Shown here piece by piece: positions 2,946 through 10,730 of a stretch of DNA of 43,091 nt. The translations under genes and the position numbers were made by a program. The notes below the pieces were generated by a model. It was not told the origin of the DNA. It saw only the letters and a list, made by a program, of their open reading frames with translations, and made no database searches. Source of the stretch: a phage; NCBI GenBank assembly GCA_021146305.1, contig GCA_021146305.1_4336.1; one strand, given 5' to 3'. The stretch's first letter is position 1; every line of letters begins with the position of its first letter.

Positions 2946-3427
2946 ATTCGTGGAAACGTTGATTGTGCGGTTCCGTAGGCTTTAAGGAAACACCCCAGCC
3001 CGTCACCATAACAACCATACAAATCCGGCAGATTGTTAACAAGGCACTGGTTCTCAAGGTCCTGGAACGGCGATTTCTCGGCGGTTGCCGTGAAAGTAAT
3101 TGTCCAGTTAATCCCGTCTTCAGTGGACTCGGCGACGGTGGATGTAATGGTGACTTGATAATCCTCAATACCCATGCCGAAGTCGTGCGCCATCCAGAAA
3201 CTTGACGCGCCACCATCGACTTTCTCGAGGAACGACAGAAACGCCTGCCGCCCCATTGCGGATGTAATCAGGGTTACGCTTATCGGAAACACGTCGTAAT
3301 ACGTGTCACGGCCCTGACGCACCCCGCCGCCAGCTAAATCGACGCTCCAGACGTTGTTACGTCTGGTCATTGAGTAGCCTTTTGACACTATAGGGCGGAG
3401 GCTACGTGGGAAATATAATTCGGTCAT
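2927..3427 (-). CDS. minor tail protein (by synteny)
   Basis: 166 aa; start codon overlaps the tape-measure stop (TAATG coupling). Confidence 0.4.
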   Translation of the reverse strand: MTELYFPRSLRPIVSKGYSMTRRNNVWSVDLAGGGVRQGRDTYYDVFPISVTLITSAMGRQAFLSFLEKVDGGASSFWMAHDFGMGIEDYQVTITSTVAESTEDGINWTITFTATAEKSPFQDLENQCLVNNLPDLYGCYGDGLGCFLKAYGTAQSTFPRIWEPMQ

Positions 3428-5766
3428 TATTTAAACCCCGGCGCATTTCTTGTGGCCTTGCGGGCCTTGCTAATCTTACTGTTACTGTTCTGCAAAGAGG
3501 CAGCCACTTGCTCCTCGATGATGATACGCAAACGGCCTTCATCATCTTGCTCAGTGGATACGTTGCCGATTTGAGAACTCGTGTTGTTTACGATAGTAAC
3601 ATTAGACGGTCCGGAAGAAGACCCGTTTTGCCCCATAATTTCTTTCATCTGCTGTGCGGTGCGTACACGTGACGCACCAGCGGGCATGATAACTTCCGGT
3701 TTACCGCGTTCGGCGATGGTTGAAGCCTGCCCCGCGGATAACTGTCCGCCCTGTTCACGTGCGGACCTGATAGCGGAAATCTGCGCCATACCCGCCCCAA
3801 CGGCAGCGGCGGCAGCTACAGGAGCCAGGAATGGGCCAACTACAGGGATAGCCGCCGTGGACTTGTACGCCTCGATAGCCGCGGTGTAAGTGGCTATGGT
3901 GGCCTGTACGATAGCGAATGCCTTATACGCACCAGAGGCCTCGCCCAACGCAGACCCGATGTTTGAGGCCATGTTACCGAAGGCGGTTGCCGTTGCGTCG
4001 GCACGCTTGGTTGCGTATTGCTCATTGATGGCGTTAAGCGCGGCCTGATACTGCTTCTCACTAATAAGACCCTGCTCACGGTACTTATCGGCTACCGCCA
4101 GTTTCTGCTGTTCCTGGATGTCGAGAAGCTCAAGCTCAGTAGCGTTCTGGCCCATAATCTGAGCCATGAAGTCTTCACCTTTCTGGTTCTTTTCCTGCCG
4201 TTCTTTCTCTCGTTTAGCGAGTTCCTCCTGGCGAGCAGTGTCCGCTTCCAGCATAATCTGCGTCTTGGCGTTTTCGTACTGCTGGTCGCTAAGAAGCTGA
4301 TTGCCGTAAAACTCCTGTAGCTTGGTTAACTGCTGTTCCTGGTTGGCTTCTATTTTCTGGAATACGTCATCATTGAGATGAATTGACTGATAGTAGAAAT
4401 CCTCCGCGGCTTTCTTCTGGCGCTCGAACGCATCCGCTGCTTTCTTAGCGGCTTTTGCACCCGCGCTATCATCTTCAGATCCGCCGCCGGTACCAGTTAC
4501 CTTAAATTTACTAAGCCCTTCTTCCTTAGCGGCTTCTTTGTCGATGTCATACGCTGCGCGTTTAAGCGCGACGATATTTTGCTGAGCCTCCACCTGTTCG
4601 CGGAAACTTTTACGTGTCAGGTCCGCAACGTCGCGCTGAGTATCCAGTGCCATCCCCAGCTGGAAGTTAATATTTTTTGCTACGTCTACGGATTCCCCTG
4701 GTGTGAAGGCGGCCTTAACCAGCCGACCGGCATCCTGCGCCCCTTTAACCATATCCTCAAAGAAGCGCTCCATCGCGGTAAATTCTTCCGCGATGAAATC
4801 GAGCGCATCGGCGGCTGATTCCGCTATGGTTGTCGCCGTTTGTTCGCCGCTATCCGTGATACTTTTGCTACTAAAATCCCAAAGCTCATTTAGCCCGTTT
4901 ATCGCATCACCCACGAAACCAAATGCCGCGTCGAATGACATCTCTATTGCGCTTCCTACTTCCGACGCGATGTCACCCCACATACGCATCTCTGCGGCAA
5001 GTTCACCGGACGCAACCTGTGCGTTAAGTTCCTGGATTAAATCATCGATGTATCGGATAGGTTCGGCGAGCGCACCAACATCAAGACTGGTAGCCAGCGT
5101 CATTTTTAACTGCGACCATGAGTCGCTGGCACTGGCGATGGCCCCGTTAAGTGTGTTGGCCTGGTCCGCCATAGCCCCCGCGAAGTTTACGTTACCGATG
5201 TTGAGCAGGTATTGCTCGATGTCGGCAGCGCTCTTCTTAACTACCGTAGTAGTACCCTGGAATGTAAATTCAACATCGTTTTTGTTCTGTTTGGCCTTGA
5301 TACCAAATTCTTTAAGGCGCTCAAATTCAAAAGTACTAGCGTCTGCAACCGCCTCAATCATCTGATTCAGGTCTTTACCCATAGCAGCGGCGGTGTTTCC
5401 GTAGGAACGCAACGCTTCTTCTGACGGTGTAAGACCAAGCGCCACAAGTTTACGGAATCCCTCTACCGCCTGTTCAAGGCCATACGGAGTGTCGCGCGCG
5501 AAGTCTTGCAGGATGCTTAACGCCTGTCTTGCACCCTGCGTGCTTCCGGTTAGTGTTTTCAGGCTGGCGGACATCTTGTCCAGTTGCCGATGGGATTCTA
5601 CCAGTTCCTGTGCGGCCTTGTAAGCGGTAGCGGCGACGATGGAAGCGAGGCCCGCTACCGCAGCTCCGGCTACCTTTGCAGACTTGGAAAGGTTATCAAG
5701 ACGGTCTGATGTAGCTTTCGCGCCTTGCTCTGATACTTTTACAACTAAACTAGCTACATCAGCCAT
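3427..5766 (-). CDS. tail tape measure protein
   Basis: 779 aa, Ala/Gln/Glu-rich with extended coiled-coil character; largest gene of the tail block; preceded by two small chaperone-like ORFs and followed by minor tail genes. Confidence 0.85.
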   Translation of the reverse strand: MADVASLVVKVSEQGAKATSDRLDNLSKSAKVAGAAVAGLASIVAATAYKAAQELVESHRQLDKMSASLKTLTGSTQGARQALSILQDFARDTPYGLEQAVEGFRKLVALGLTPSEEALRSYGNTAAAMGKDLNQMIEAVADASTFEFERLKEFGIKAKQNKNDVEFTFQGTTTVVKKSAADIEQYLLNIGNVNFAGAMADQANTLNGAIASASDSWSQLKMTLATSLDVGALAEPIRYIDDLIQELNAQVASGELAAEMRMWGDIASEVGSAIEMSFDAAFGFVGDAINGLNELWDFSSKSITDSGEQTATTIAESAADALDFIAEEFTAMERFFEDMVKGAQDAGRLVKAAFTPGESVDVAKNINFQLGMALDTQRDVADLTRKSFREQVEAQQNIVALKRAAYDIDKEAAKEEGLSKFKVTGTGGGSEDDSAGAKAAKKAADAFERQKKAAEDFYYQSIHLNDDVFQKIEANQEQQLTKLQEFYGNQLLSDQQYENAKTQIMLEADTARQEELAKREKERQEKNQKGEDFMAQIMGQNATELELLDIQEQQKLAVADKYREQGLISEKQYQAALNAINEQYATKRADATATAFGNMASNIGSALGEASGAYKAFAIVQATIATYTAAIEAYKSTAAIPVVGPFLAPVAAAAAVGAGMAQISAIRSAREQGGQLSAGQASTIAERGKPEVIMPAGASRVRTAQQMKEIMGQNGSSSGPSNVTIVNNTSSQIGNVSTEQDDEGRLRIIIEEQVAASLQNSNSKISKARKATRNAPGFK

Positions 5767-6118
5767 CGTTTCTACCCTCGAAAATAGCGTCTAAGCTCAT
5801 GATGATGTCAGATTCAAACATGCCTATATTCTGGCCTGAAACGGTGCTATATGCCACTAAATCCGACCATCTTAACTGTTCACGCGGATACATCTTGATG
5901 CCATCATCGTCCACTCGGCGGGTGAATTTGATTTCCCTGTACTTCTCGAAGGTGGTTAATAGCTCAGGGGGGCATTCTGGCCCGGTGTCCTGCGTTGCTT
6001 CCGGCGCGTCTTGCATAACCCCCATAGCAATTAGCGCGGCTTTATGCCCGTCGGAGATACTGTCAAACTCCCGCCGTTTGTGGCGAGTTATGAAGTTCCA
6101 ACGGGCAAACTGGAGCAA
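5759..6118 (-). CDS. tail assembly chaperone, frameshift-extension ORF (T-like part)
   Basis: 119-aa frame whose first in-frame start is TTG; the frame stays open upstream into the 3' end of ORF 6124-6540, consistent with expression as a -1 frameshift fusion. Confidence 0.45.
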   Translation of the reverse strand: MLQFARWNFITRHKRREFDSISDGHKAALIAMGVMQDAPEATQDTGPECPPELLTTFEKYREIKFTRRVDDDGIKMYPREQLRWSDLVAYSTVSGQNIGMFESDIIMSLDAIFEGRNDG

Positions 6119-6123
6119 CGCGT

Positions 6124-6133
6124 CTACTTTTCC
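6124..6133 (-). other. candidate -1 programmed ribosomal frameshift site
   Basis: Minus-strand heptamer GGAAAAG directly followed by the TAG stop of ORF 6124-6540; the -1 frame is the open frame of 5759-6118. Non-canonical heptamer, so tentative. Confidence 0.35.
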
Positions 6134-6540
6134 TGCAATTGGTGAAGCTGTTCGTTGTGGAAAACAACAACGTGTTCAGCGAGGCGTTTATATTGTGAAA
6201 AAAGAGTATTCAGGTTCTCTTTATTAAATTCATCGTCGAGACTCCAACCGTTAACCAGTTCAAGTGCTAACTGGCGGTTAAGGTCCGTCGCGGCGTCTTC
6301 CATCTTAATGTTATATTCCGAGAAATCTTTCAGTTCCTCGCATTTATCACGAAGCGGCTTCAGTTTACCTAACGACGCGCGGTACGCCAGGGTAAATGCA
6401 CGCATGGCTTTAACCGCAACGTCTGCCTCCGGTGAAACAACGTTCAGCCACTCCCCTGAATCGGTGCCGTCTTTCAGTGGGATCGGCATACGGGCGCCTT
6501 TTTCTGCCTCAGCTTCGTAATAAAAATCAGAAAGTTTCAT
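6124..6540 (-). CDS. tail assembly chaperone (G-like)
   Basis: 138 aa acidic protein immediately upstream of the tape measure gene; canonical chaperone position. Confidence 0.5.
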   Translation of the reverse strand: MKLSDFYYEAEAEKGARMPIPLKDGTDSGEWLNVVSPEADVAVKAMRAFTLAYRASLGKLKPLRDKCEELKDFSEYNIKMEDAATDLNRQLALELVNGWSLDDEFNKENLNTLFSQYKRLAEHVVVFHNEQLHQLQEK

Positions 6541-6647
6541 TCTTTAATCCTTTGGTTAAGAGGTTACGGGTTAAGGTTAATGCGCCAGACGGGAACCACC
6601 CGCTTTTCGTGTGCGACACTAGGCGCAAAATTATTCTATCACATTAC

Positions 6648-6676
6648 TTGCACACCCCAATATAATAGTGTACTAT
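6648..6676 (+). promoter_or_regulatory. sigma70-like promoter with operator palindrome
   Basis: TTGCAC (6648-6653), 17-bp spacer, TACTAT (6671-6676); palindrome TAATAG-tgta-CTATTC (6663-6678) overlaps the -10; about 40 bp upstream of ATG 6718. Confidence 0.55.
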
Positions 6677-6717
6677 TCACTTACACCAACGATGTTATCC
6701 CAAACAGGAGCTACACC

Positions 6718-6909
6718 ATGACGGGTATTACTATGTTCTTCTTAATCATTATCGTTTTAGTTTATTTTATTCCATTTCTCGTGGCGCATATGCGCGACCA
6801 TAAAGCGAAATTAGCGATATTCATGGCTAATCTGTTTCTTGGATGGGTTCTGCTGCCGTGGGTATTTATTTTAATCTGGGCTTGCAACTCGAATGTCAAA
6901 GAGAAGTGA
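6718..6909 (+). CDS. small membrane protein
   Basis: 64 aa from ATG 6718 preceded by AGGAG; two hydrophobic helices (FFLIIIVLVYFIPFLVA and LFLGWVLLPWVFILIW). The track ORF 6580-6909 is longer, but the internal ATG has the RBS and promoter. Confidence 0.55.
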   Translation: MTGITMFFLIIIVLVYFIPFLVAHMRDHKAKLAIFMANLFLGWVLLPWVFILIWACNSNVKEK

Positions 6910-6946
6910 GCTAGTATAGGACAAATCCTAAGCACGAGGAATAAAC

Positions 6947-8077
6947 ATGGCCCGGAAGAAAATAACCGACGAACAGTTGCAGGAAGAATTGAACGCCGGT
7001 ATGAAGAATGTAGATATCGCCCGTAAATACGGCATCTCAGACCGCGTAATTCGTATCCGTAAAGCGAAGCTGGCTAAGAAAGGCGTGGGCCACGGGCGCG
7101 ACGTTAGCCACCTTGTGCCAGACGGCTACAAGATTAAAGGAACGTCGTCACTTGTGGACGAGTTCGGCAACACTAAGTTGCAATGGGTTAAGACTGATAC
7201 CGACGCCGAACGTCAGGTTGAATTGATGAAAGCCGTAATAGAGGGCATGAAGTCAGAGATTACGCCCGTTGCGCCTGTTAAAGCGGCGCGCGCCAAACGT
7301 GACGACAAGCTACTCAATCTTTACACTGTATCTGATTTCCATCTCGGTATGCTGGCATGGGCCGATGAGAGCGGCGACGACTGGGACATGAAGATTGCAG
7401 AAGACCTGTTCTCTCGGTGGTTCGACGCGGCGTTTCAGAAAGCACCGGATGCAGGAACAGGAGTTATTAACCTGCTTGGGGACTTCGCACACTTCGATAG
7501 TCTTGATGCCGTTACCCCCGAGTCGCGCCATGTATTAGATGCGGATACTCGCTATCAGAAACTGGTACGTTACATGATTCGTATGGTCCGCCGTGTTGTT
7601 GATATGGCGCTGGTTAAGCATCACACAGTAAAACTTTTAATCGTTCAAGGTAACCACGACCCTGTTGGCTCCGTATGGCTTGCCGAAATGTTCACGGTTT
7701 TATACTCAAACGACAGCCGAGTGATTGTTGATACGTCGCCGGATGTTTACAAGATGGTGCAACACGGCAAAACGACGCTGTTCTTCCATCACGGGCATAA
7801 AGCACGATTCGACGCTATCGAACCGGTTATGATTGCCAAGTTCCGTAAAGCGTTCGGCGAGAGTGTTTACAGCTACGCCCACGTAGGCCATCTGCACCAC
7901 CAGAAGATTGTAGAAAGCCGTAACATGATTGTTGAGCAACACCGCACCTTAGCGGCTAAAGACGCCTACGCCTCTCGCGGCGGATGGATGTCGGGCCGCA
8001 GTGCAAATGTAATTACTTATAGCGCCGGATATGGTGAGGTCGCACGTTTAACTATTTCACCGGAGATGCTGGGATGA
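6947..8077 (+). CDS. HTH-containing calcineurin-like metallophosphoesterase
   Basis: 376 aa; N-terminal helix-turn-helix-like segment, then ordered metallophosphoesterase motifs SDFHLG, GDFAHFD, GNHD, HHGH, GHLHH (motif I resembles SbcD/Mre11 DWHLG); AGGA RBS. Confidence 0.7.
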   Translation: MARKKITDEQLQEELNAGMKNVDIARKYGISDRVIRIRKAKLAKKGVGHGRDVSHLVPDGYKIKGTSSLVDEFGNTKLQWVKTDTDAERQVELMKAVIEGMKSEITPVAPVKAARAKRDDKLLNLYTVSDFHLGMLAWADESGDDWDMKIAEDLFSRWFDAAFQKAPDAGTGVINLLGDFAHFDSLDAVTPESRHVLDADTRYQKLVRYMIRMVRRVVDMALVKHHTVKLLIVQGNHDPVGSVWLAEMFTVLYSNDSRVIVDTSPDVYKMVQHGKTTLFFHHGHKARFDAIEPVMIAKFRKAFGESVYSYAHVGHLHHQKIVESRNMIVEQHRTLAAKDAYASRGGWMSGRSANVITYSAGYGEVARLTISPEMLG

Positions 8078-8562
8078 AAGATATTGTAATTTTCGATTTA
8101 GACGGGACATTGGCCGACGGTACCCATCGCTTACACCTGTTACCAAAAGATAACTACGGAGAAACGTGGGCGTGGAAGCCATTTAACATGGCCTGCAAAG
8201 ATGACGCTCCGATATACGACAATATCCATTTGTGTAGCGTACTGTGGCATTCCGGACTTACTATAATTATCCTTACCGGGCGAAGTGATGACGCTGAGGA
8301 GGAGACTCGCGAATGGTTACGAGAGAATAACGTTAGGTTTGACACGCTAATCATGCGCAGCAAACACGACAACAGAAAAGACATCGTAATTAAAGAAGAG
8401 GTGTTGCGTGCTTTCGGACTGGAAAGAATCTTGTGTGCGTTCGACGACTCTCCAGCGGTAATAAAGCATTTCCGTGACCTCGGCATAACCGCACACGCAG
8501 TTACCGAATACGACTGTAACGGGAACTCTACACACTTAAAACCACACGGGAGCGATAAATAA
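8074..8562 (+). CDS. HAD-superfamily phosphatase (polynucleotide 3'-phosphatase / nucleotidase-like)
   Basis: 162 aa; N-terminal FDLDGTLADG (HAD motif I, DxDGT) plus downstream RKD..KEE segment; resemblance to the T4 Pnk phosphatase domain is recalled from memory, not aligned; ATGA coupling to upstream gene. Confidence 0.6.
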   Translation: MKDIVIFDLDGTLADGTHRLHLLPKDNYGETWAWKPFNMACKDDAPIYDNIHLCSVLWHSGLTIIILTGRSDDAEEETREWLRENNVRFDTLIMRSKHDNRKDIVIKEEVLRAFGLERILCAFDDSPAVIKHFRDLGITAHAVTEYDCNGNSTHLKPHGSDK

Positions 8563-9116
8563 TGGCTAAGGTAATTATTCTTAATGGCCCTGCGGGTTGC
8601 GGGAAAGACACGCTTGCTATGGCGCTGGTAGAAATGGGCTTTGCGAAAGGAACTACCAGTTTCAAGAATCCAATGTTCAATATTGCTTTGGCAGCGTTAG
8701 GCCAGGATGCTTACCACGAATTTCTCGACGGCTACGACGACCGGGCGCGGAAAGAAAAACCCGAGGGTTTTCTTAATGGGTTGTCCCGCCGCCGGTTAAT
8801 GATTGCCATTTCTGAGCAATTCATTAAACCGGTATTCGGCGATGATTATTTCGGTAAGTATCTTGCTGAAAACTTGCCTGACGGCGACGAAGTTTTTGTA
8901 GTGTCCGATGGTGGATTCGCCAGTGAAGTTGCCCCTATCGTCGCCGCGGGGCATGACGTGCGAATCGTCCGCCTCCATCGTGACGGCTATACGTTCATCC
9001 GCGATAGCCGTGGCTATCTGTACGATGTTAGTGGTGTAAAAGATTACGACACCTACATCATACCGGGTGACGTTAAATCGAACGTTATAGACATTGCTTT
9101 AAAATTAGGTTTGTAA
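8562..9116 (+). CDS. P-loop kinase (dNMP kinase / polynucleotide kinase-like)
   Basis: 184 aa; Walker A GPAGCGKDT; overall pattern resembles phage dNMP kinase family (recalled, not aligned). Confidence 0.6.
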   Translation: MAKVIILNGPAGCGKDTLAMALVEMGFAKGTTSFKNPMFNIALAALGQDAYHEFLDGYDDRARKEKPEGFLNGLSRRRLMIAISEQFIKPVFGDDYFGKYLAENLPDGDEVFVVSDGGFASEVAPIVAAGHDVRIVRLHRDGYTFIRDSRGYLYDVSGVKDYDTYIIPGDVKSNVIDIALKLGL

Positions 9117-9146
9117 GAAAAAGGCCCCGAAAGGGGCCTTAGTTTT
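9117..9146. terminator. bidirectional intrinsic terminator
   Basis: aaGGCCCC-gaaa-GGGGCCtt hairpin (8-bp GC stem, 9121-9140) with A-run upstream and T-run downstream, between convergent genes 8562-9116 (+) and 9145-10317 (-). Confidence 0.8.
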
Positions 9147-10317
9147 ATGCGTAGGTGATACGTTGAATTACGATAGACGACTGGTACTGATTGCCGGTAG
9201 CCTGGCCTTCAATGGACTGAGTGATTGACTCAGGCCCACCAATCTCAGGTGTAACCGCCGTAAGCTCTGCACGTTTCAAACTGAAAGACATAGCCCCGTT
9301 TACCCCTGCCAGAATAGAGTTAATCTCTACCTGCTGCTCGTTGATAAACTTCTGAATCATAGCCATGTCGTACAGCTTGCCGGAGATGGAGAAGGTGTTA
9401 GCCGCGCGGCTACGTTCCACAAACGCTACGTTAGTGTTGCCGAGTTCGAACTGTGCGGACGCGCTGTTGTCGTTGGTGATGGTAAGGCTATCGCAACGCA
9501 ACGGGGTAGAACCGTCGAACACGGAAACGTCAACCGAAGAGAACGGCTCATCACCAAAAGTAACAGATGAGAAGTTGGAACCGGTCGGCGGCGTAGTGAG
9601 AATCTCCTGACTGCGACCGATGAATGGGAAGCTGCCAGTTACCATCGCGTTAACAGCCTGTTCGATGGTAAAACCAGAAACTTCCACGCCTTTGGTTAAC
9701 GTGTACGCGTCAGTACCGCCGCACTGGCCTTTGTACCAGGTAAGGATAGAGAACGTCTTACACGTGTTACCGGTTTCCAGCGTGTCGCCGGTTTTAGCCT
9801 TACTAGTTTTTGTCTCGGGGGTCAGGGTGTGTTGGATGCCCGCACCAGTAACAACCGTAGCCGTTACTGCAGTAACAATAAATGGTTTTGCGTTATCGCC
9901 TGTTAAATCGGTAAATGCAATCAGGTCGCCTATCCCAACTTCGTCAGCGATAAAACTGCCGGTAGCGCGTGTGAACGTCTTGCCTGCAGGCGCGACGGTA
10001 ATTGATAGCCCGGTCAGAGAACTACCGGATTGCCATGTAGAGCCTAAAGCACCCGCCAGCCAGTCGTCCTGGCTTTTCGAGCTAAGCTCAATAGCGTATT
10101 CTCCGCTAACCTGCTTGTTACCGGTGCGGATTGACGTAGTTTCACGGCTGCCGTCCAGTTCGTTGGAGGTCAGCGTGTCGCGGGTAATGGCAGGAACGCC
10201 ACCTGTGTTACGCAATGGCGACCAGACCGGGTTAGTCGGTGTTACGCCAGGGGTAGTTTCTGCCACATAGAATTGCGCAGTATTCGCGCCCTTAAAAGGA
10301 GTTGTAGCCATATTCAC
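9145..10317 (-). CDS. major tail protein (by synteny)
   Basis: 390 aa, Thr/Ser/Gly-rich; in transcription order lies just before the tail chaperones and tape measure; ends at a strong terminator. Confidence 0.55.
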   Translation of the reverse strand: MNMATTPFKGANTAQFYVAETTPGVTPTNPVWSPLRNTGGVPAITRDTLTSNELDGSRETTSIRTGNKQVSGEYAIELSSKSQDDWLAGALGSTWQSGSSLTGLSITVAPAGKTFTRATGSFIADEVGIGDLIAFTDLTGDNAKPFIVTAVTATVVTGAGIQHTLTPETKTSKAKTGDTLETGNTCKTFSILTWYKGQCGGTDAYTLTKGVEVSGFTIEQAVNAMVTGSFPFIGRSQEILTTPPTGSNFSSVTFGDEPFSSVDVSVFDGSTPLRCDSLTITNDNSASAQFELGNTNVAFVERSRAANTFSISGKLYDMAMIQKFINEQQVEINSILAGVNGAMSFSLKRAELTAVTPEIGGPESITQSIEGQATGNQYQSSIVIQRITYA

Positions 10318-10730
10318 AGCCTCTTGGTGAATGCAATAAAGTTAATTGACAATGGTCGTTTGGCCCATCCGTTTTCTACAATCAGCGGCCCCAGGCTAAC
10401 CGATTGAACCTCGGCGCAGATGTCGTTACGTGAAAATGACTTACCTGCTTTAAACGCCGTGTTAAGTAAGTCTGCCATTTTATTGATTGGCGCGCTACCT
10501 TTCACCGATGCGTAGTTAATGTCTATCTGATAGACACCGGCGCGTTGTTCCGTGAAGAATAAGTCAGCCTGCTCGGTATCCGCCAGCAACATGTAACTTG
10601 CCAGATACGGCGTATCTGTTGACGTCGGCGCGTCGACGTTTTCAAGCGCTACCTTGATGCCGTTGGTGGTTCCGAAGGCTACCAGCGGCACATCAAACGC
10701 TTTTGTTAAGTCCTCAAAGTAGCCCATCAT
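10314..10730 (-). CDS. tail completion / terminator-type protein (by synteny)
   Basis: 138 aa; ATGA-coupled within the neck-tail gene run. Confidence 0.35.
   Translation of the reverse strand: MMGYFEDLTKAFDVPLVAFGTTNGIKVALENVDAPTSTDTPYLASYMLLADTEQADLFFTEQRAGVYQIDINYASVKGSAPINKMADLLNTAFKAGKSFSRNDICAEVQSVSLGPLIVENGWAKRPLSINFIAFTKRL

What the first reader, a model, noticed from the sequence alone, without database searches (positions are those of the whole stretch)
6118..6135. Candidate -1 programmed frameshift joining the two tail-chaperone ORFs
The upstream chaperone ORF ends ...CAG GAA AAG TAG on the minus strand; the heptamer GGAAAAG abuts the stop codon and the -1 frame is exactly the open frame of 5759-6118, which has no ATG of its own (first start is TTG). 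This matches the conserved G / G-T frameshift arrangement of tailed phages, but with a non-canonical slippery site.
Basis: partly seen in the sequence, partly recalled or inferred. Interest (0 to 1): 0.4.

Follow-up and report, generated by a model that had tools for sequence, protein, structure and literature searches.

The report
Tail-chaperone G/GT -1 frameshift site
This is the usual phage trick of making a short and a long tail-assembly chaperone from one gene by a ribosome slipping back one base, here at an unusual minimal site (A_AAG followed at once by a stop codon); the fusion is already annotated in sister phages, so it is real but ordinary.

Summary
The window is a Kagunavirus, a Guernseyvirinae siphophage of E. 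coli. On the minus strand a 138-aa tail assembly chaperone gene (6540..6124, Pfam Phage_TAC_4) ends CAG GAA AAG TAG. The -1 frame then stays open to 5759 (Pfam Phage_TAC_18) and overlaps the tape-measure gene start.

Comparison of 63 unique chaperone genes from relatives (14 clusters at 70% aa identity or more) supports a programmed -1 frameshift:
- A_AAG is invariant.
- A TAA or TAG stop follows it directly in 13 of 14 clusters.
- In some relatives the -1 frame is open for only 7 nt upstream.
- Some relatives have no ATG, GTG or TTG in the downstream frame until codon 108 of 121.
- Codon-position variability switches from frame 0 to frame -1 exactly at the site.

The heptamer G_GAA_AAG is non-canonical. 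The constant core is the tetramer A_AAG, the most shift-prone tetramer in E. coli.

It is not new. The exact fusion (...LQEK|VDAL...) is already deposited as a joined CDS for phages K1G, fPoEco01, fFiEco03 and Shelanagig. Most records, including the nearest one, omit it. I found no experimental proof. Whether a stimulator is needed remains open; candidates are the adjacent stop and a clade-specific stem-loop.

The parts
6124..6540 (-). G-like tail assembly chaperone ORF (138 aa plus TAG stop), the frame-0 product.
   Evidence: Pfam PF08748 Phage_TAC_4, E 3.3e-8. Matches phrog_15027 positions 1-138 of 259.
6127..6133 (-). Shift site G_GAA_AAG. The invariant core A_AAG is 6130-6127.
   Evidence: Read directly. 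A_AAG is invariant in 63 unique relatives in 14 clusters. The G before GAA is conserved in all GAA lineages even though the preceding codon differs (CAG, TCG, GCG, ATG, TTG, CTG).
6124..6126 (-). Frame-0 stop TAG directly 3' of the shift codon, a possible 'shifty stop' stimulator.
   Evidence: TAA or TAG directly follows A_AAG in 13 of 14 clusters. The one exception, L075, has the stop one codon later. The third base of the -1 frame Val codon GTA is invariant.
5759..6127 (-). T-like extension read in the -1 frame (122 aa: VDALLQFARW...EGRNDG, then TGA). The predicted GT product is the complement of join(6540..6127, 6127..5759), 260 aa.
   Evidence: Pfam PF23812 Phage_TAC_18, E 1.2e-18. Matches phrog_15027 positions 138-259. 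Identical fusions are deposited for sister phages.
6127..6175 (-). Overlap window in which a -1 shift could give the fusion in this phage. It is bounded upstream by the -1 frame TGA at 6178-6176.
   Evidence: Relatives narrow this window to 7-25 nt.
6034..6121 (-). Putative stem-loop whose base helix starts 5 nt after AAG. It is specific to the Kagunavirus/Jerseyvirus clade and is an unproven stimulator.
   Evidence: MFE -43.8 kcal/mol, z -3.3. It lies in the lowest 0-10% of local 110-nt windows in nearly all members of this clade, but not family-wide. No compensatory changes were seen. Synonymous codon identity is raised, 0.76 against 0.64 and 0.45.
3427..5766 (-). Tape measure protein gene. 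Its ATG at 5766 overlaps the end of the T frame (ATGGCTGA).
   Evidence: phrog_1538, E 6.6e-207. Pfam TMP_3 matches but below its curated cut-off (36.4 vs 41 bits).

Best explanation
A minority of ribosomes translating the 138-aa chaperone gene slip back one nucleotide at its last sense codon. tRNA-Lys (anticodon mnm5s2UUU), paired to AAG at 6129-6127, re-pairs to AAA at 6130-6128. The next codon read is then GTA (Val), and translation continues in the -1 frame to 5759. This gives a 260-aa G-T fusion (...LQEK-VDALLQ...), while most ribosomes stop at TAG and make the short G protein.

By analogy with lambda gpG/gpGT, the shared G part would bind the tape measure protein and the T part would recruit the tail tube protein. 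Neither would be in the virion.

Shown here:
- the frame relation;
- invariance of A_AAG and of the adjacent stop;
- lack of any usable start codon for T in several relatives;
- selection on the -1 frame starting right at the site;
- homology to TAC families.

Inferred:
- that slippage occurs at all, and how efficiently;
- the timing of the slip. It could be an A-site slip, helped by tRNA-Glu re-pairing from GAA to GGA with a middle G.U pair. It could instead be a P-site slip while the stop codon waits for a release factor;
- whether the 88-nt stem-loop helps.
For: 1. The arrangement is conserved in 63 unique relatives in 14 clusters, down to about 43% aa identity. A_AAG is invariant, and TAA or TAG is adjacent in 13 of 14 clusters.
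2. The A before AAG sits at a frame-0 wobble position and stays A in four codon families (GAA, GCA, GTA, GGA). Three of these are four-fold degenerate.
3. In L077 and L081 the -1 frame is closed by TAA only 7 nt upstream of the stop, which pins the shift to GCA_AAG.
4. In L103 and L106 the first ATG, GTG or TTG in the T frame is codon 108 of 121. TTG 6118 is CTG in distant relatives.
5. Variability by codon position is 0.31/0.27/0.51 in frame 0 upstream. Between the stop and the first conserved Met it is 0.21/0.18/0.44 in frame -1.
6. L060 carries lambda's canonical G_GGA_AAG at the same place. The distant homologue L030 has A_AAA_AAC TGA there. Burkholderia phage KL1, whose capsid and tail proteins resemble those of K1G/K1H, has GGGAAAC immediately before its TGA (PMC3483164).
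7. phrog_15027 spans both halves, meeting at profile position 138.
8. The exact fusions are deposited as joined CDS for K1G, fPoEco01, fFiEco03, fKuEco01, fFiEco02 and Shelanagig.
9. A_AAG is the most -1 shift-prone tetramer in E. coli (PMC4066793). NNA_AAG sites are used by IS1222 and occur in B. subtilis cdd (PMC5009743).
Against: - No experimental detection of the fusion was found for any Guernseyvirinae phage.
- The site is not a canonical X_XXY_YYZ heptamer, and one genome announcement says so explicitly (PMC6776780).
- In reporter assays A_AAG alone was barely above background, 0.15% against 0.11%, and needed a pseudoknot to reach 5.6%.
- No family-wide downstream structure or upstream SD-like element was found here, and there is no Rfam match.
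- In this phage a TTG with an AGGA 12 nt upstream exists, so some independent T synthesis cannot be excluded.
Confidence: 0.85

Rival explanations
1. The downstream ORF is translated independently as a separate small protein. It would start either at TTG 6118, using the AGGA at 6134-6131 as its ribosome-binding site, or at ATG 6025. No frameshift would be involved.
For: Many GenBank records annotate it this way. Shashou lists TTG plus an RBS. 22664BS2 starts at the ATG. SP-101 and Ent3 list two separate CDS. ATG codon 34 is conserved in most relatives.
Against: - TTG is CTG in all distant relatives, and the AGGA is absent where the site is AAC GCA AAG.
- The Met-34 ATG is lost in the L097-L106 group, whose first start codons are at codons 47-108.
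- The 34 codons upstream of that ATG are conserved as protein in the -1 frame, with third-position variation.
- This model gives no reason for the invariant wobble A before AAG.
Confidence: 0.07
2. Termination-reinitiation: ribosomes finish G at TAG and restart 9 nt downstream on the conserved YTG (TTG or CTG) codon, giving a free T protein.
For: A Leu codon TTG or CTG is always present at -1 codon 4, and the stop is always adjacent.
Against: - CTG is a very poor bacterial start codon (general knowledge).
- This model does not explain the invariant A_AAG, or the conserved G before GAA.
- It does not explain why homologues carry canonical heptamers at the same place (L060, L030).
- In lambda the T domain works only when fused to G (PMC5009743).
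Confidence: 0.04
3. Transcriptional slippage on the A run (GAAAAG) adds one A to some mRNAs, which would put T in frame with G.
For: A short A run lies at the site.
Against: The run is only 4 A here and 3 A in the GCA, GTA and GGA lineages. This is far shorter than the homopolymer runs used for productive polymerase slippage (general knowledge).
Confidence: 0.01

Closest known systems
Phage lambda gpG/gpGT -1 frameshift, and the conserved G/GT arrangement of long-tailed phages (Levin 1993; Xu, Hendrix and Duda 2004, as cited in PMC5009743)
   Same: Two overlapping chaperone ORFs lie just upstream of the tape measure gene, with the second in the -1 frame and lacking its own start. The slip involves tRNA-Lys moving from AAG to AAA near the end of G. 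The relative L060 even carries lambda's G_GGA_AAG.
   Different: The heptamer here is G_GAA_AAG, not X_XXY_YYZ. The shift codon is the very last sense codon, directly against the stop. There is no detectable sequence similarity to lambda G or T (different Pfam TAC families). A 2.6-kb opposite-strand gene block separates the tail-tube-like gene from G.
Annotated frameshift fusions in the same subfamily: K1G ADA82267.1/YP_009168804.1, fPoEco01 QNO11812.1, fFiEco03, fKuEco01, fFiEco02 and Salmonella phage Shelanagig QEG07365.1
   Same: The genes are orthologous and the junction is identical (...EK|VD...). fPoEco01 is 95.8% identical in DNA to this region.
   Different: These are curators' predictions without published experiments that I could find. 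The nearest record (22664BS2, 99.8%) and most others do not carry the join.
Z_ZZN tetramer and NNA_AAG hexamer -1 frameshift sites: IS3 (A_AAG plus pseudoknot), IS1222 (G_CGA_AAG), B. subtilis cdd (A_CGA_AAG)
   Same: Single-tRNA-Lys slippage from AAG to AAA, with a poorly re-pairing or non-re-pairing 5' tRNA. The 5' codons seen in the family include GCA and GUA. These are read by cmo5U34 tRNAs (general knowledge), the type of wide-wobble tRNA reported to favour this slippage.
   Different: Those cases rely on a defined stimulator, a pseudoknot or an upstream SD. Here no family-wide stimulator other than the adjacent stop codon was detected.
Burkholderia phage KL1 gp18/gp19 (GGGAAAC immediately upstream of TGA; PMC3483164) and the IMG/VR homologue L030 (A_AAA_AAC TGA)
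   Same: The slippery site is the last two codons of G and abuts the stop.
   Different: Their heptamers are canonical.

Membership tests
G/GT tail assembly chaperone programmed frameshift of tailed phages | Two consecutive ORFs lie immediately upstream of the tape measure gene, in the tail module. | tested here: met
   G is at 6540..6124, T runs to 5759 and TMP is at 5766..3427. A tail terminator and a 390-aa tail protein lie at 9145-10730. An opposite-strand block at 6580-9116 lies between them and G.
G/GT tail assembly chaperone programmed frameshift of tailed phages | The second ORF overlaps the first in the -1 (rarely +1) frame and lacks a conserved start codon or RBS of its own. | tested here: met
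   The -1 frame relation holds in all 63 unique relatives. The first start is at codon 108 in L103 and L106. TTG becomes CTG in distant relatives.
G/GT tail assembly chaperone programmed frameshift of tailed phages | A canonical slippery heptamer X_XXY_YYZ lies in the overlap. | tested here: not met
   G_GAA_AAG is not X_XXY_YYZ. Only L060 (G_GGA_AAG) and L030 (A_AAA_AAC) are canonical. The tetramer rule Z_ZZN is met instead.
G/GT tail assembly chaperone programmed frameshift of tailed phages | The arrangement is conserved across diverged relatives. | tested here: met
   It holds in 14 clusters at 70% aa identity or more, down to about 43% identity.
G/GT tail assembly chaperone programmed frameshift of tailed phages | The products belong to tail assembly chaperone families. 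| tested here: met
   PF08748 (34.2 bits, cut-off 21.1) and PF23812 (67.5 bits, cut-off 27). phrog_15027 spans both halves.
G/GT tail assembly chaperone programmed frameshift of tailed phages | The fusion protein is made at a low fixed ratio and is required for tail assembly. | not testable with these tools
   No experiment was found in the literature searches.
Tetranucleotide / NNA_AAG -1 frameshift sites (IS3, IS1222, cdd type) | A_AAG is in register with frame 0, so tRNA-Lys can re-pair to AAA. | tested here: met
   It is invariant in relatives.
Tetranucleotide / NNA_AAG -1 frameshift sites (IS3, IS1222, cdd type) | A stimulatory element is present (downstream hairpin or pseudoknot, or an upstream SD-like sequence). 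| tested here: inconclusive
   A stable stem-loop is seen only in the Kagunavirus/Jerseyvirus clade. The consensus fold is weak (-5.8 kcal/mol) with no compensatory pairs in the outer helix. By inspection of the sequence tails (no formal scan), no SD-like element recurs 10-14 nt upstream.
Stop-codon-stimulated ('shifty stop') frameshifting | A stop codon lies directly 3' of a codon whose tRNA can re-pair in the new frame. | tested here: met
   AAG is followed by TAG or TAA in 13 of 14 clusters. The -1 frame Val codon is always GTA although Val is four-fold degenerate.
Stop-codon-stimulated ('shifty stop') frameshifting | Frameshift level responds to release-factor activity. | not testable with these tools
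   This needs a reporter assay with RF1 over-expression or depletion.

The most novel reading that the evidence does not exclude
This whole chaperone family may use a minimal recoding signal consisting only of A_AAG plus the adjacent UAG or UAA, with no dedicated RNA structure. In that reading the G:GT ratio is set by competition between release-factor action and slippage of tRNA-Lys. Lineages have settled on two alternative 5' contexts. One is G_GAA, where tRNA-Glu can re-pair to GGA through a G.U pair. The other is GCA or GUA, read by wide-wobble cmo5U34 tRNAs. This would be a natural, conserved phage example of a -1 'shifty stop', and would tie tail assembly stoichiometry to host termination efficiency.
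Probability: 0.3. Interest if true: 0.45.

Novelty: already known. Interest (0 to 1): 0.2.

Why it matters
Practically, it is an annotation fix. The nearest record and most of roughly 300 Jerseyvirus and Kagunavirus genomes list the T frame as a separate hypothetical protein, start it at an internal ATG, or omit it. A joined 260-aa CDS is the better model.

Scientifically, the modest point is that a large phage family keeps a non-canonical site, A_AAG against a stop. Automated frameshift finders and curators looking for XXXYYYZ miss it; one paper explicitly reports 'no canonical slippery sequence'. The natural series of 5' contexts offers a ready-made test set for how minimal -1 sites are tuned.

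Tried and rejected
- **Other slippery sites in the 49-nt overlap.** A U_UUC tetramer lies at 6163-6160 (GTT TTC). It is rejected because Shashou and others have a -1 frame stop only 25 nt, or as little as 7 nt, upstream of the G stop. A shift at U_UUC would therefore terminate.
- **Upstream SD-like stimulator.** AGGA at 6134-6131 overlaps the site itself, so it cannot sit at the spacing of about 10 nt or more seen in dnaX (recalled from the literature). It is also absent from the AAC GCA AAG lineages.
- **Family-wide downstream structure.** RNAalifold gave a weak consensus. Individual folds of distant relatives were not better than shuffles. Internal-window controls gave a median percentile of 0.37-0.46.
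- **Rfam.** Only chance-level snoRNA hits.
- **The search for homologous proteins with the fusion.** It returned only 5 partial hits and no fused proteins. The exact-sequence look-up answered the question instead.
- **The Jerseyvirinae paper** (PMID 25663216), cited in Shashou's annotation, is not held.
- **Motif over-representation in the window.** Not significant.

Full report
**Identity and context.** The region 5000-7000 is 99.8% identical to Escherichia phage vB_EcoS-22664BS2. It is 94-96% identical to many other Kagunavirus phages (Guernseyvirinae), and about 82% identical to Salmonella Jerseyvirus phages.

The minus strand carries these genes:
- a tail terminator at 10730..10314;
- a 390-aa tail protein at 10317..9145;
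- the chaperone pair;
- a 779-aa tape measure protein at 5766..3427;
- distal tail genes.

An opposite-strand block (6580-9116) sits between the 390-aa tail protein and the chaperone gene. It encodes a superinfection immunity protein, an exonuclease/phosphoesterase, a polynucleotide kinase and a kinase-like protein.

**The observation.** One search shows CAG(6135-6133) GAA(6132-6130) AAG(6129-6127) TAG(6126-6124).
- The upstream ORF (6540..6124, 138 aa) matches Pfam Phage_TAC_4.
- The -1 frame, translated from 6133, matches Pfam Phage_TAC_18.
- The -1 frame is open from 6175 to the TGA at 5761-5759.
In-frame ATGs do exist at 6025 and 6016.
- The short motif AAAGTAR is not over-represented in the window, 15 found against 11.5 expected. 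The sequence alone proves nothing.

**Comparative evidence.** I collected relatives from IMG/VR, GenBank and Logan assemblies. This gave 63 unique chaperone genes in 14 clusters at 70% aa identity or more, reaching down to about 43% identity.

- **The core site is invariant.** Every member has A_AAG as the last, or in L075 the second-last, sense codon context of G. TAA or TAG follows directly in 13 of 14 clusters.
- **The 5' codon varies.** It is GAA in 52 distinct sequences, GCA in 13 (including L075), GTA in 3 and GGA in 1. Its third base is always A, although three of these codons are four-fold degenerate.
- **G_GAA_AAG is conserved within the GAA lineages.** In all of them the preceding base is G even though the preceding codon differs (CAG, TCG, GCG, ATG, TTG, CTG). 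In the GCA lineages that base is C, A or G.
- **Canonical sites occur at the same place.** L060 has lambda's G_GGA_AAG. The distant Phage_TAC_4 homologue L030 has A_AAA_AAC TGA.
- **The shift is pinned to two codons.** In L077 and L081 a -1 frame TAA lies only 7 nt upstream of the G stop, so the frame change must happen at GCA_AAG.
- **T has no start of its own in some relatives.** In L103 and L106 the first ATG, GTG or TTG in the T frame is codon 108 of 121. In L097-L106 the otherwise conserved Met-34 is Ile. TTG 6118 is CTG in all distant relatives.
- **Selection switches frame at the site.** Across 70 distinct sequences, variability peaks at frame-0 third positions upstream (0.31/0.27/0.51). 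Between the stop and Met-34 it peaks at frame -1 third positions (0.21/0.18/0.44). GGAAAAGTA is the most conserved 9-mer of the 249 nt examined.

Together these results show that the codons right after the G stop are translated in the -1 frame. They also show that the only conserved way into that frame is from G at A_AAG.

**Mechanism.** A_AAG is the most -1 shift-prone tetramer in E. coli. The reported order is A_AAG >> U_UUC > U_UUU and so on (PMC4066793).

E. coli has a single tRNA-Lys reading both AAA and AAG (PMC5009743). NNA_AAG sites are used by IS1222 and occur in B. subtilis cdd. At such sites, 5' codons read by tRNAs with greater wobble propensity give higher frameshifting (PMC5009743). 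From general knowledge, GCA and GUA are read by cmo5U34 tRNAs, which fits that rule. In the GAA lineages, tRNA-Glu could re-pair from GAA to GGA with a central G.U pair, which would explain the conserved G.

In reporters the tetramer alone was near background (0.15% against 0.11%), and reached 5.6% only with the IS3 pseudoknot. A stimulator is therefore expected, and there are two candidates:

- **The adjacent stop codon.** It is conserved, and the overlapping Val codon is always GTA. This would allow a P-site slip of peptidyl-tRNA-Lys while the A site waits for a release factor.
- **A stem-loop at 6121-6034.** Its base helix begins 5 nt after AAG.
  - Its MFE is -43.8 kcal/mol with z -3.3.
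  - In the Kagunavirus/Jerseyvirus clade it ranks in the lowest 0-10% of local 110-nt windows in nearly all members.
  - Synonymous codon identity between the two genera is 0.76 in T codons 1-36, against 0.64 in the rest of T and 0.45 in G.
  - It is not kept in more distant relatives, the consensus fold is weak and its outer helix shows no compensatory pairs, and the clade is too uniform to test covariation.

Both slip timings give the same protein, ...LQEK-VDALLQ..., of 260 aa.

**Rivals.** Independent initiation at TTG 6118 or ATG 6025, termination-reinitiation at the conserved YTG, and transcriptional slippage on a 3-4 A run all fail to explain three things: the invariant wobble A, the relatives without start codons, and the canonical heptamers at the same place in homologues. 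Some additional free T synthesis from TTG 6118 in this particular phage cannot be excluded.

**What is already known.** phrog_15027 has 259 profile positions. It matches G at positions 1-138 and the T frame at 138-259, so fused sequences were already in public data.

An exact-sequence look-up found my predicted fusions deposited as proteins:
- K1G ADA82267.1 / YP_009168804.1;
- fKuEco01;
- fPoEco01 and fFiEco03 (QNO11812.1, QNO11663.1);
- fFiEco02 QNO11587.1;
- Salmonella phage Shelanagig QEG07365.1.

In fPoEco01, which is 95.8% identical to this region, the CDS is a two-piece join labelled 'putative tail assembly chaperone frameshift product'.

By contrast, most of the records I inspected list two separate CDS, start T at the internal ATG, or omit it (22664BS2, Shashou, EC3-1, SP-101, Ent3, SHWT1). 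In one search's sample of 60 of the 306 matching records, most name the two ORFs separately, but join flags were checked only for the inspected records. [quoted passage not shown] I found no experimental demonstration in the searchable literature.

**Verdict.** The feature belongs to a very well known class and is already annotated in the same genus. Its only slightly unusual aspect is the minimal, non-canonical site pressed against the stop codon. Interest is low.

Noticed in passing
window 6580-9116 (+ strand): A 2.6-kb opposite-strand block interrupts the usual order of tail tube gene, then G/GT, then tape measure gene. It encodes a superinfection immunity protein (6718-6909), an exonuclease/metallophosphoesterase (6947-8077), a polynucleotide kinase (8074-8562) and a dNMP-kinase-like protein (8562-9116). 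The chaperone/TMP operon therefore needs its own promoter in 6540-6720. The simple sigma-70 scan found none on the minus strand.
   Followed up: partly
L060, last codons of G (about 1906-1917 of the locus): A natural variant has CAG GGA AAG TAG, lambda's canonical G_GGA_AAG. It arises from a single Glu-to-Gly codon change within an otherwise G_GAA_AAG cluster.
   Followed up: partly
L075 (IMGVR_UViG_2162886012_000023), end of G: This is the only relative where the stop is not adjacent: GCA AAG TTA TAG. The -1 frame still reads K-V-I-A-L-Y, so the shift site and the T frame are kept while the stop moved one codon.
   Followed up: partly
window 6160-6163 (- strand): A second shift-prone tetramer, U_UUC (GTT TTC), lies inside this phage's 49-nt overlap. 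In Shashou and others a -1 frame stop lies between it and the G stop, so it is not a conserved entry point.
   Followed up: yes
window 6020-6127 (- strand); T codons 1-36: Synonymous codon identity between Kagunavirus and Jerseyvirus is clearly higher just downstream of the shift site (0.76) than in G (0.45) or the rest of T (0.64). This hints at an RNA-level constraint or a recombination boundary at the G/T junction.
   Followed up: partly
window 5759-5766 (- strand): The tape measure ATG (5766) overlaps the end of the T frame in ATGGCTGA. The preceding sequence GAGGGTAGAAACG is nearly invariant in relatives. This suggests translational coupling of TMP to ribosomes finishing GT, or its own RBS embedded in T.
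   Followed up: no
L115 (Logan SRR27755630 contig) 1935-2293; L111 (SHWT1): Automatic gene callers and some submitters leave the T frame entirely uncalled, with a 360-nt 'gap' before the TMP gene. This is a systematic annotation hole for the family.
   Followed up: partly
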